From an uncultured Chloroflexia bacterium (lineage in GTDB: Bacteria; Chloroflexota; Limnocylindria; Limnocylindrales; CSP1-4): DNA of 64,000 nucleotides. The DNA is taken from positions 56,032 to 120,031 of the forward strand of contig CAVSXG010000001.1 of assembly GCA_963731865.1 (NCBI GenBank), in the 5' to 3' direction. Shown here piece by piece: positions 17,335-18,387 of the stretch. Within the stretch, counting starts at the first letter, position 1; every line of letters starts with the position of its first letter. Under the pieces are notes generated by a model that saw only the letters and a program-made list of their open reading frames with translations, was not told where the DNA came from and did not search any database. A program made the translations under genes and the position numbers.

Positions 17335-18387
17335 ATGTGTCCCGTGACCGAGACGCATCGTTCGCGTGTCATCTCGAGCGAGTCGGCCGGGCAGCCACGC
17401 CATCCGCTCGACCGGCGCACGTTCGATGCGGCGACCCTGATGCGCGAGCATCCGCCGCGCTGGACGCACCCGAACAAGCGCGCGGTCTTCGAGGTTGCCG
17501 CTCCGCCGGGTTCGGTTCACCAGGGCACGATCGGCTATTCGCGATGGGCGGCTGAGCCGCTGCCGGACCGGATGCTCCCCGGCAGGGACCTGGTCACGGC
17601 CAAAGCCGGCTATCTCGACTACGAGCCCGTCCTGGACGGCACGGACGCCGTCGAATGGCACGGTGAACTTCGCCGACCCGGAGCTGTTCGGCGCATACGC
17701 GGGAGCGCTGTTCGCGCAGGACGAGTCGCAGGTCGTCGAACATCCAGCGCTCGGCGCGCTCAAGGAGGCGCTGGCGTCGATCGGGATCCGGCCGCTGACC
17801 GCCGACTCGACTGGCCCGAAGCCCGTCCTCGTCACGGGCGTGGAGCGGCGAGTGAGTGTTTCGATCGATCCCGATCCCGCAGCTGGTCGACCACGTGGCC
17901 TCTACGGAAACGCGTTCGCGGCCGCTCCGCCCGATGCGGTCAAGCGAGCGACGCGCCGGATCGAGCCGCCGACCGTGACGAACCTGATCGCGATCGCGGC
18001 GCCCTATCCCGGTCGCGGCGCCTACGACGCGCGAACGATCGAGAACGTCCTCGTGACCGCCTATACGGGCTTTTCAGCCGCGGTCCGCGAGTCCGAACGC
18101 ATCGTCGGCGCGCATACCCGCGTCGCCATCCACACCGGCTACTGGGGATGTGGCGCCTTTTGGCGGCAACCGAACCCTGATGGCCCTGTTGCAGATCCTC
18201 GCGGCAGGCACAGCCGGGGTCGATCGGCTCGTGTTCCACACGGGTCAGCCCGGCGGCGAAGCACCACTCGACCGAAGCCATAGAGGTCGAGACCGAAATG
18301 CTCGCAGGCCACGAGGTCGAGACCAAGGCCCTCATCGGTGCGATTGCCGCGAGACCATTCTTGTGGGGCCTTAGCAACGAAACCTGA
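17335..18387 (+). CDS. PARG-like (poly(ADP-ribose) glycohydrolase catalytic macrodomain) protein; frameshifts near 17660, 18160 and 18270
   Basis: Rejoined frames give WH.NFADPELFGAYAGALFAQDESQVVEHP and [14 protein letters not shown], resembling canonical PARG motifs (DFAN..[17 protein letters not shown]). Confidence 0.68.

What the first reader, a model, noticed from the sequence alone, without database searches (positions are those of the whole stretch)
17335..18387. Canonical (eukaryote-type) PARG-like glycohydrolase with a QDE catalytic variant
Seen after rejoining three frameshifts: NFADPELFGAYAGALFAQDE and [14 protein letters not shown]. Established: canonical PARGs carry GGG-x6-8-QEE and [11 protein letters not shown], whereas most described bacterial PARGs are of the DUF2263 type. 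Inference: a bacterial canonical-like PARG with the first Glu replaced by Asp. No ADP-ribosyltransferase is nearby, so it may reverse ADP-ribosylation by foreign (phage or competitor) enzymes.
Basis: partly seen in the sequence, partly recalled or inferred. Interest (0 to 1): 0.62.

Follow-up and report, generated by a model that had tools for sequence, protein, structure and literature searches.

The report
Frameshift-broken bacterial QDE-type PARG-like gene
This soil bacterium carries one copy of a widespread, untested bacterial enzyme family that looks like the eukaryotic enzyme that removes poly(ADP-ribose), and the three frameshifts that break it are most likely sequencing-assembly errors.

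Summary
Window 17335-18387 (+) encodes a 349-aa protein once three single extra bases are skipped (17662, the T-run ending at 18161, and 18270-18273). Both quoted motifs are present.

The read-through protein passes Pfam PARG_cat_C (53.9 bits, cut-off 26.3) and fails the bacterial-type PARG model TIGR02452 (15.8 bits, cut-off 50). A high-confidence model of a 79%-identical intact homologue (pLDDT 94) matches eukaryotic canonical PARGs best (E about 1e-14). It matches Deinococcus PARG far less well (5e-5).

QDE is not peculiar to this gene. It marks a family of about 600 clusters at 50% identity, spread over many bacterial phyla. The family signature is NFAD-x13-QDE..EHP, no GGG, and TG[YF]WGCGAFGGN.

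The frameshifts are probably artefacts. rpoB and RNase J are frameshifted in the same assembly. All five shifts in this 3-kb patch are +1. The read-through keeps 32 of 32 invariant residues.

The gene sits in a variable toxin-antitoxin and restriction island. It has no ADP-ribosyltransferase nearby and no conserved partner. PARP is present in only 1 of 50 genomes that carry the family.

Function is untested. The most likely role is an orphan ADP-ribose O-glycohydrolase. The locus itself is ordinary; the family is a genuine open question.

The parts
17335..17661 (+). Piece 1 of the PARG-like gene: N-terminal beta-rich region, residues 1-109 of the read-through protein. The start is ATG 17335.
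   Evidence: Homology to the related contigs L096 and L097 begins at 17328.
17662..17662 (+). First extra base (CAC-G-GTG). The frame moves +1.
   Evidence: L095, L096 and L097 all lack this base.
17663..18160 (+). Piece 2: the macrodomain core.
   Evidence: PF05028, 27.2 bits on this piece alone.
17666..17725 (+). Catalytic-loop signature NFADPELFGAYAGALFAQDE. It aligns with D-F-A-N...GGG...Q-E-E of mouse PARG.
   Evidence: One search gives the alignment, which is weak (1.1 bits). Searches show Q and the last E are invariant, and QDE occurs in 240 of 241 members.
18128..18170 (+). Diphosphate-binding loop [14 protein letters not shown], interrupted by the second extra base in the T-run 18158-18161.
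   Evidence: Searches align it to [12 protein letters not shown] of PARG. One search shows L095 has one T fewer.
18162..18272 (+). Piece 3: [16 protein letters not shown]...FHTGQPGGEAPL.
18270..18273 (+). The third extra base lies within these four bases (GACC). The frame moves +1.
18274..18387 (+). Piece 4: C-terminal helices and the stop codon. It ends WGLSNET, where the family reads WG[VL]SDGN.
15877..16550 (-). Context: an intact VapC (PIN) and Phd/YefM antitoxin pair.
16576..17234 (-). Context: a second PIN toxin with a MazE/AbrB-type antitoxin, divergent from the PARG-like gene. The PIN gene carries a +1 frameshift near 16700.
18580..19906 (+). Context: an AspBHI/MspJI-like methyl-directed restriction enzyme (PADLOC mREase_II). 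It is split by one +1 frameshift near 19160-19175.
   Evidence: (profile positions 7-195 and 197-432 of 434 fall on two frames).

Best explanation
The locus is a single-domain gene of about 330-350 codons. It belongs to the 'QDE-type' bacterial branch of the PARG-like macrodomain class.

Shown:
- It has a PARG-type fold and a PARG-type diphosphate-binding loop.
- Gln and the last Glu of the Q-D-E triad are invariant in the 109-member alignment A1, and Asp is kept in at least 90% of members.

Inferred:
- The protein binds ADP-ribose in the macrodomain cleft.
- It uses the invariant Glu of the triad as the acid that cleaves an O-glycosidic bond at C1'' of the distal ribose, as PARG does.
- Almost no genome that carries the family has a PARP, and the gene has no conserved ADP-ribosyltransferase partner. 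The substrate is therefore probably not endogenous poly(ADP-ribose).
- More likely substrates are ADP-ribose attached by foreign enzymes, or other ADP-ribose conjugates. Examples are ADP-ribose on the 2'-OH or phosphate of RNA or DNA, or phosphorylated ADP-ribose derivatives.
- That would make it an orphan 'eraser' carried in a variable toxin-antitoxin and restriction island.

The three +1 frameshifts are most likely consensus errors of an error-prone long-read metagenome assembly. On that reading the gene is intact in the organism.
For: Identity:
- PF05028 scores 53.9 bits against a cut-off of 26.3. TIGR02452 scores only 15.8 against 50.
- The AF2 model of P0004 (79% identical) has pLDDT 94.1 and pTM 0.93.
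- Foldseek against PDB gives human, mouse, fly and Tetrahymena PARG at E 4e-14 to 1e-10 over about 300 columns, and Deinococcus PARG at 5e-5. Baculovirus PARGs top the viral library.

Family:
- More than 2000 homologues were found, forming 605 clusters at 50% identity with E<=1e-30.
- A motif scan found it in 216 GTDB species across Chloroflexota, Planctomycetota, Actinomycetota, Cyanobacteria, Acidobacteriota and others.
- QDE occurs in 240 of 241 members. Q109 and E111 are invariant.

Frameshifts as artefact:
- rpoB and RNase J are also frameshifted in this assembly.
- Completeness is 78.7% with only 7 contigs.
- All five shifts between 16.7 and 19.2 kb are +1.
- The read-through keeps 32 of 32 invariant columns and 72 of 76 near-invariant ones. 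Intact members miss a median of 3.
- dN/dS against relatives is 0.19-0.24.

Orphan eraser:
- PARP is present in 1 of 50 family-bearing genomes.
- Tpt1/KptA is present in 10 of 50, against 3 of 14 controls.
- No neighbour is conserved across phyla, and no ART domain was found nearby.
- Close relatives also sit beside PIN or PemK toxin-antitoxin pairs.
- Fusions to DSP-PTPase phosphatase domains recur. Pfam ties those domains to NAD and polymorphic-toxin contexts.
- PARG-type enzymes, and only those, reverse RhsP2 2'-OH RNA ADP-ribosylation and protect E. coli (PMC11833690).
Against: - The artefact reading is therefore indirect.
- The gene family is being lost in this lineage. A relative that is 85% identical carries a truly truncated allele in two independent short-read samples. 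A same-genus genome holds only a C-terminal remnant.
- Catalysis is not shown. GGG is absent. The first Glu is Asp. The residue aligned to the essential Asp of PARG (human D737, from my own knowledge) is Asn. The active site is therefore rewired and could be inactive or have a different chemistry.
- The catalytic-loop alignment to PARG is weak in sequence (1.1 bits). I could not inspect model coordinates.
- The family is absent from PADLOC and from phages. Outside this lineage its neighbours look like housekeeping genes. The defence-island link may be local coincidence.
Confidence: 0.6

Rival explanations
1. The gene is a real, recently inactivated pseudogene. The three extra bases exist in the organism's DNA, and the gene is decaying in a variable island.
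For: - Close relatives carry a genuinely truncated allele. In L096 and L097, homology stops at window 18138, before the diphosphate loop, and a RelA_SpoT cassette follows.
- G033 keeps only a C-terminal remnant.
- Only 2 of 36 other same-genus genomes have any match.
- The neighbouring vapC and the restriction enzyme gene are broken too.
Against: - Essential genes (rpoB, rnj) in the same assembly have the same kind of shifts.
- All five shifts in the patch are +1 insertions. None is a deletion.
- There are no substitutions at 32 invariant sites, and only 4 misses at 76 near-invariant sites, which is within the range of intact members.
Confidence: 0.2
2. It is a true poly(ADP-ribose) glycohydrolase that turns over endogenous PAR made by a bacterial PARP.
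For: The fold and the diphosphate loop are PARG-like. One family-bearing Planctomycetota genome does encode a PARP catalytic domain.
Against: PF00644 passes its cut-off in only 1 of 50 genomes that carry the family, and is absent from the window's own genome. The GGG-X-QEE signature is not kept.
Confidence: 0.05
3. It is a small-molecule ADP-ribose-derivative hydrolase. Candidate substrates are phosphorylated ADP-ribose derivatives, O-acyl-ADP-ribose, or ribose-ribose-linked signalling nucleotides. On this reading it works in NAD-derived metabolite salvage or signal removal, not on macromolecules.
For: - N-terminal fusions to DSP-PTPase phosphatase domains recur (PTP-SAK, PTP-NADK, Tc-R-P; 5 of 11 long members examined: four, plus P0095 from the precomputed Pfam column).
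- It is a stand-alone gene with housekeeping-type neighbours in Coriobacteriia and cyanobacteria.
- An ARH (PF03747) gene lies divergently next to it in a Gemmatimonadales genome.
Against: No substrate information exists. The fusions are a minority. PARG-type enzymes characterised so far act on polymer or nucleic-acid conjugates (PMC11833690).
Confidence: 0.15
4. It is a catalytically dead ADP-ribose reader.
For: GGG is lost, the first Glu is Asp, and the position aligned to the essential Asp of PARG is Asn.
Against: In the 109-member alignment A1, Q and the final E are invariant, as is the flanking E-H-P. QDE is read in 240 of 241 proteins in the wider set of hits. That pattern is typical of an active site. 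dN/dS is 0.2.
Confidence: 0.05

Closest known systems
Canonical (eukaryote-type) poly(ADP-ribose) glycohydrolase: human, mouse, Drosophila and Tetrahymena PARG (PDB 4b1h, 4fc2, 8adj, 4epp); Pfam PARG_cat_C PF05028
   Same: - It passes the PF05028 cut-off.
- It is the best structural match (E 4e-14, about 300 aligned columns, TM 0.50-0.59 on the query).
- The diphosphate loop is nearly identical ([11 protein letters not shown]), followed by the same helix LxALxQxLAA.
- Gln and the catalytic Glu of the triad are kept, as is the downstream x5-P-x-L.
   Different: - It is about 330 aa with no PARG_cat_N accessory domain or regulatory region.
- GGG is absent.
- QEE becomes QDE.
- D-F-A-N becomes N-F-A-D.
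- There are about 26 more residues between the catalytic and diphosphate loops.
- It occurs in bacteria that almost never have a PARP.
- Activity is untested.
Bacterial-type PARG (DUF2263 / TIGR02452): Thermomonospora curvata PARG, Deinococcus radiodurans DRB0099, Streptomyces coelicolor SCO0909
   Same: - It belongs to the same macrodomain class.
- It is a stand-alone bacterial gene with patchy distribution.
- The physiological role is unknown.
- A role as an immunity or repair enzyme against ADP-ribosylating toxins has been proposed (PMC11833690).
   Different: It fails TIGR02452 (15.8 bits against 50). The fold match is far weaker (E 5e-5, TM about 0.35-0.40). Those enzymes keep GGG-X6-8-QEE.
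MavL/Larg1 (DUF4804) arginine-specific macrodomain hydrolases
   Same: They are divergent bacterial macrodomain hydrolases with a topology similar to that of bacterial PARG (TcPARG), and they lack the GGG-QEE signature (PMC10951314).
   Different: There is no DUF4804 Pfam hit. Neither published MavL signature pattern ([V/I/L]xGxGxGx[F/W/Y] in the diphosphate loop, WDxx[S/A]xPGN[D/E][F/Y][F/W/Y] in the catalytic loop) fits the family's conserved loops.

Membership tests
Canonical PARG (Pfam PARG_cat_C PF05028) | Score above the Pfam gathering cut-off | tested here: met
   The read-through protein scores 53.9 bits against 26.3, and piece 2 alone scores 27.2. Only profile positions 113-199 of 207 are matched.
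Canonical PARG | Catalytic signature GGG-X6-8-QEE | tested here: not met
   The window reads FGAYAGALFAQDE. The family reads QDE in 240 of 241 members, and GGG is not conserved.
Canonical PARG | Diphosphate-binding loop ([12 protein letters not shown]) | tested here: met
   [13 protein letters not shown] aligns to [12 protein letters not shown]. The commonest family forms are TG[YF]WGCGAFGGN.
Canonical PARG | PARG-type extended macrodomain fold | tested here: met
   The AF2 model of the 79%-identical homologue has pLDDT 94. Foldseek E is 4e-14 to human PARG, and canonical PARGs fill the top 41 ranks.
Canonical PARG | N-terminal accessory domain (PARG_cat_N) | tested here: not met
   There is no Pfam hit other than PF05028 at E<=1. 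The protein is only about 330-350 aa.
Canonical PARG | Tyrosine clasp over the adenine (human Y795) | not testable with these tools
   The sequence alignments to PARG do not cover that segment, and model coordinates cannot be read. The invariant Tyr in GLYGNxF is only a candidate.
Canonical PARG | Hydrolysis of poly(ADP-ribose), working with a PARP | tested here: not met
   Activity is not testable here. Co-occurrence was tested: PARP (PF00644) passes its cut-off in 1 of 50 family-bearing genomes and is absent from the own genome.
Bacterial-type PARG (DUF2263 / TIGR02452) | Score above the NCBIfam or Pfam cut-off | tested here: not met
   TIGR02452 scores 15.8 bits against a cut-off of 50. No DUF2263 hit appears in Pfam at E<=1.
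QDE-type bacterial PARG-like family (alignment A1) | Family-invariant residues (NFA, Q-x-E, EHP, YG, GxWGCG..G, Q, W) | tested here: met
   The read-through protein keeps 32 of 32 invariant and 72 of 76 near-invariant columns. It is 73-85% identical to the nearest members.
MavL/Larg1 DUF4804 macrodomains | Signature motifs and the Pfam DUF4804 match | tested here: not met
   There is no such Pfam hit. The motifs quoted in PMC10951314 do not appear in the family's conserved motifs; no pattern search was run.
Known anti-phage defence systems (PADLOC) | Match to a PADLOC protein model | tested here: not met
   P0004 matches 0 families. Only the neighbouring gene matches mREase_II.

The most novel reading that the evidence does not exclude
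The QDE-type proteins may be a third, catalytically active branch of the PARG class, and the closest bacterial kin of eukaryotic PARG. On this reading they do not degrade PAR. They erase other C1''-O-linked ADP-ribose conjugates in bacteria that lack PARP. Candidate substrates are 2'-OH- or phosphate-linked ADP-ribose on RNA or DNA laid down by competitor or phage toxins, or ribose-ribose-linked signalling nucleotides. The rewired N-F-A-D / Q-D-E site would set the new specificity, and the fused DSP-PTPase phosphatases would act on the same substrate.
Probability: 0.25. Interest if true: 0.7.

Novelty: new variant of a known kind. Interest (0 to 1): 0.35.

Why it matters
PARG is treated in textbooks as a eukaryotic partner of PARP, and bacteria are said to use the simpler DUF2263 type. 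This finding shows a family of about 600 sequence clusters at 50% identity, found in at least eight bacterial phyla. It has the eukaryote-type PARG fold and diphosphate loop but its own invariant catalytic signature, and it occurs almost always without a PARP.

Finding its substrate would do three things:
- It would show what canonical-type PARG enzymes do outside PAR metabolism.
- It would test the recent proposal that bacterial PARGs are immunity or repair enzymes against ADP-ribosylating toxins.
- It would bear on where eukaryotic PARG came from.

The locus in this window adds little on its own. It is one damaged-looking copy in an error-prone assembly. The family is already tagged by Pfam and has been met several times in this scan.

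Tried and rejected

2. I wrote a homology-free frameshift scan of the whole genome (codon-usage Viterbi). It recovered the three PARG shifts and gave 1024 '+1' junctions against 438 '+2'. It also called false frame flips inside the intact 897-aa ORF, so I treat it as suggestive only.

3. I ran Pfam on other candidate split genes of the window. The result was inconclusive.

4. I looked for a conserved partner gene. An all-against-all clustering of 4489 ORFs from 80 loci found only lineage-specific synteny: racemase, aminotransferase, ClpP and similar. No ART was found.

5. I looked for an endogenous writer by co-occurrence.
- PARP was present in 1 of 50 genomes.
- Tpt1/KptA was present in 10 of 50, the same rate as the controls.

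6. Mobile-element carriage is minimal. No phage record matched. One Treponema 382-kb plasmid matched, where the gene is annotated 'hypothetical protein' among LRR proteins.

7. PADLOC gave no match.

8. I considered programmed frameshifting and rejected it. There are three +1 shifts in one gene, with no shared slippery motif among the three sites, and essential genes are shifted in the same way.

9. I first took the Tyr of 'TAYTGF' as the PARG tyrosine clasp. Counting residues in the mouse chain showed it is a different Tyr, so I withdrew that claim.

10. A literature search found no paper that characterises bacterial PF05028 members.

Full report
**Observation**

Translating 17200-18450 in three frames shows one protein that runs through four pieces: 17335-17661, 17663-18160, 18162-18272 and 18274-18384, followed by a stop. 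Exactly one base is skipped at each junction, and the frame moves 1 to 2 to 0 to 1, so all three shifts are +1. NFADPELFGAYAGALFAQDE lies at 17666-17725. [14 protein letters not shown] lies at 18128-18170 and is split by an extra T.

I aligned the DNA with three related contigs from independent short-read assemblies (L095, L096, L097). The window has one extra base at 17662, one in the T-run 18158-18161, and one within 18270-18273. There is no other indel against L095 between 17400 and 18270, before the third site.

**What the protein is**

- The 349-aa read-through protein passes Pfam PARG_cat_C (PF05028) at 53.9 bits against a cut-off of 26.3. Only profile positions 113-199 are matched.
- The bacterial-type PARG model TIGR02452 reaches only 15.8 bits against a cut-off of 50.
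- phmmer against PDB sequences finds only canonical PARGs, at E 2e-7. The alignment of [25 protein letters not shown] to [24 protein letters not shown] is near-identical. A weak second alignment places VNFAD...QDE..HPAL on VDFAN...QEE..NPEL with identical spacing.
- I built a 109-member alignment (A1) and modelled P0004, an intact homologue that is 79% identical. The model has pLDDT 94.1 and pTM 0.93.
- Foldseek against the PDB ranks human, mouse, Drosophila and Tetrahymena PARG first, at E 4e-14 to 1e-10 over about 300 aligned columns. Deinococcus bacterial-type PARG follows at 5e-5.
- In the viral library, baculovirus PARGs come first.

**The family**

- The gene is not an oddity. More than 2000 homologues were found. 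The nearest are 73-85% identical, and most are 325-340 aa and about 55-60% identical. All are already tagged PF05028 in the precomputed tables and named 'hypothetical protein' or 'PARG'.
- An exhaustive profile search finds 605 clusters at 50% identity with E<=1e-30, and 1173 with E<=1e-10.
- A motif scan of one genome per species finds the family in 216 species. These include Chloroflexota (among them Limnocylindrales), Planctomycetota (Gemmata), Actinomycetota and Coriobacteriia, Cyanobacteria (Microcoleus, Tychonema), Acidobacteriota, Gemmatimonadota, Synergistaceae and Hydrogenedentota.
- QDE is read in 240 of 241 members. GGG is not conserved. The motif reads N-F-A-D (228 members) or N-F-A-N (11 members) where PARG has D-F-A-N. 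The diphosphate loop is TG[YF]WGCGAFGGN.
- The 'QDE variant' is therefore the signature of a distinct branch, not a change in this gene.

By the defining-feature test the protein is a PF05028 member with the PARG fold and diphosphate loop. It fails the canonical GGG-X6-8-QEE signature and lacks PARG_cat_N. I therefore file it as a variant of the PARG kind, not as a canonical PARG.

**Are the frameshifts real?**

The indirect evidence favours assembly error.

- The genome has 7 contigs but only 78.7% estimated completeness.
- Earlier notes of this scan on other parts of the same genome reported patchy +1 insertions in essential genes. I checked this myself. rpoB is split between frames by a +1 shift. 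RNase J is in three pieces on different frames.
- In my window the patch 16.7-19.2 kb holds five shifts, all +1. One is in a vapC gene, three are in the PARG-like gene, and one is in the restriction enzyme gene. The 897-aa ORF just upstream is intact and collinear with its 906-aa orthologue.
- The read-through protein keeps 32 of 32 invariant and 72 of 76 near-invariant family columns. Intact members miss a median of 3 and at most 8.
- dN/dS against relatives is 0.19-0.24.

There is evidence the other way. The gene is clearly dispensable in this lineage.

- Only 2 of 36 other same-genus genomes have any match. One is intact at 52% identity and one is a C-terminal remnant.
- An allele that is 85% identical, seen in two independent samples, is truly truncated before the diphosphate loop. 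A RelA_SpoT cassette follows it.

I put the artefact reading at about 0.75-0.8 and a real pseudogene at about 0.2.

**Context**

Upstream and divergent lie two PIN-toxin/antitoxin pairs. Beyond them is an adenylate-cyclase/STAND-NTPase/TPR gene. Downstream lie an AspBHI/MspJI-like methyl-directed restriction enzyme (PADLOC mREase_II) and then msrB. No ADP-ribosyltransferase domain was found in the ORFs tested between about 8.2 and 25.6 kb.

Close relatives sit in the same kind of place. L095 has a PemK pair upstream and a SNase-domain gene downstream. L096 and L097 have the same cyclase gene and a PIN pair.

Across phyla there is no conserved neighbour. Clustering 4489 ORFs from 80 loci gave only lineage-specific, housekeeping-type synteny. 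Single look-ups showed unrelated neighbours, apart from one divergent ARH (PF03747) gene in a Gemmatimonadales genome.

The family is absent from PADLOC and from phage records. It appears on one large Treponema plasmid only.

**Function**

The following is shown: a PARG-type fold and diphosphate loop, an invariant Gln and final Glu of the triad (Asp in at least 90% of the 109-member alignment A1), and purifying selection. From this I infer that the protein binds ADP-ribose and hydrolyses a C1''-O-glycosidic bond, with the conserved Glu as the acid, as in PARG.

The substrate is probably not endogenous PAR. PARP (PF00644) passes its cut-off in only 1 of 50 family-bearing genomes and is absent from this one. 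Tpt1/KptA is no more frequent than in controls, at 10 of 50 against 3 of 14.

Two leads point elsewhere.

- Lu et al. 2025 (PMC11833690) showed that PARG-type enzymes alone reverse RhsP2-made 2'-OH RNA ADP-ribosylation, and that bacterial PARGs protect E. coli from that toxin. They also note that some bacteria encode canonical-type PARGs.
- Five of eleven long family members examined (four, plus P0095 from the precomputed Pfam column) carry an N-terminal DSP-PTPase domain. The Pfam models hit are PTP-SAK, PTP-NADK and Tc-R-P. One other member carries DUF429. This hints at phosphorylated ADP-ribose conjugates or nucleic-acid ends as substrates.

The rewired site could mean a different specificity or, less likely, loss of catalysis. 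The rewiring is N for the essential Asp of PARG (from my own knowledge), D for N740, D for the first Glu, and no GGG.

**Novelty and verdict**

I found no paper that characterises bacterial PF05028 members. Their existence is visible in Pfam-based annotation and is mentioned in one sentence of PMC11833690. Earlier notes of this scan describe the same QDE family in several other genomes and reach the same reading. My tests agree with them.

This locus is therefore one more, damaged-looking, copy of an uncharacterised variant branch of a known enzyme class. Interest is moderate for the family and low for the locus.

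Noticed in passing
window 18580-19906 (+): An AspBHI/MspJI-like methyl-directed restriction enzyme (PADLOC mREase_II; Pfam RE_AspBHI_N plus Mrr_cat) is split into two ORFs by one +1 frameshift near 19160-19175. The surrounding 2-kb bin (18001-20000) has lower GC (0.62) than the rest of the window.
   Followed up: partly
window 16576-16980 (-): The second VapC (PIN) gene changes frame (+1) near 16700. Its C-terminal 'DAMIVASTVAADALPLATFD' lies in the ORF 16584-16679.
   Followed up: partly
own genome C1:183281-187600 (outside the window): Only model positions 597-1238 of rpoB were found, with a +1 shift near 184660. 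The DNA just upstream encodes cytochrome-c-like and quinone-oxidoreductase-like sequences instead of the rpoB N-terminal half. This may be a misassembly or a rearrangement.
   Followed up: partly
L096 7001-8880 and L097 1895-3774: In a strain that is 85% identical, the PARG-like gene is truncated right after 'HTG'. It is followed by a 242-aa RelA_SpoT (PF04607) gene and a 77-aa gene, a possible small-alarmone-synthetase toxin-antitoxin cassette that replaced the 3' end. The same allele was seen in two independent samples.
   Followed up: partly
proteins P0095, P0124, P0129, P0191, P0227, P0125: Natural fusions of the QDE-type PARG-like domain recur with an N-terminal DSP-PTPase phosphatase (PF22784, PF22785, PF22741). 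One fusion is with DUF429. Other long members (P0063, P0130, P0186, P0183, P0211) have N-terminal regions with no Pfam match.
   Followed up: partly
L011 5918-6943 (-): In a Gemmatimonadales genome, an ADP-ribosylglycohydrolase (ARH, PF03747) gene lies divergently, 57 bp from the PARG-like gene. These are two different ADP-ribose hydrolase folds side by side.
   Followed up: no
G033:C2:242303-242528 (L004, L006): A same-genus genome keeps only the last 75 or so codons of a PARG-like gene (FEGNRVLMALLQ...WGVSD), themselves on two frames, with no upstream part detectable.
   Followed up: partly
window 13145-15838 (-): An 897-aa adenylate/guanylate cyclase domain is fused to a STAND-type NTPase and TPR repeats. 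It is conserved next to the toxin-antitoxin and PARG island in relatives (906 aa in L096). A second cyclase with a cupin domain lies at 22054-22905.
   Followed up: no
window 18364-18384: This copy ends WGLSNET, where the family's near-invariant tail is WG[VL]SDGN. The tail is disordered in the model (pLDDT below 50).
   Followed up: no
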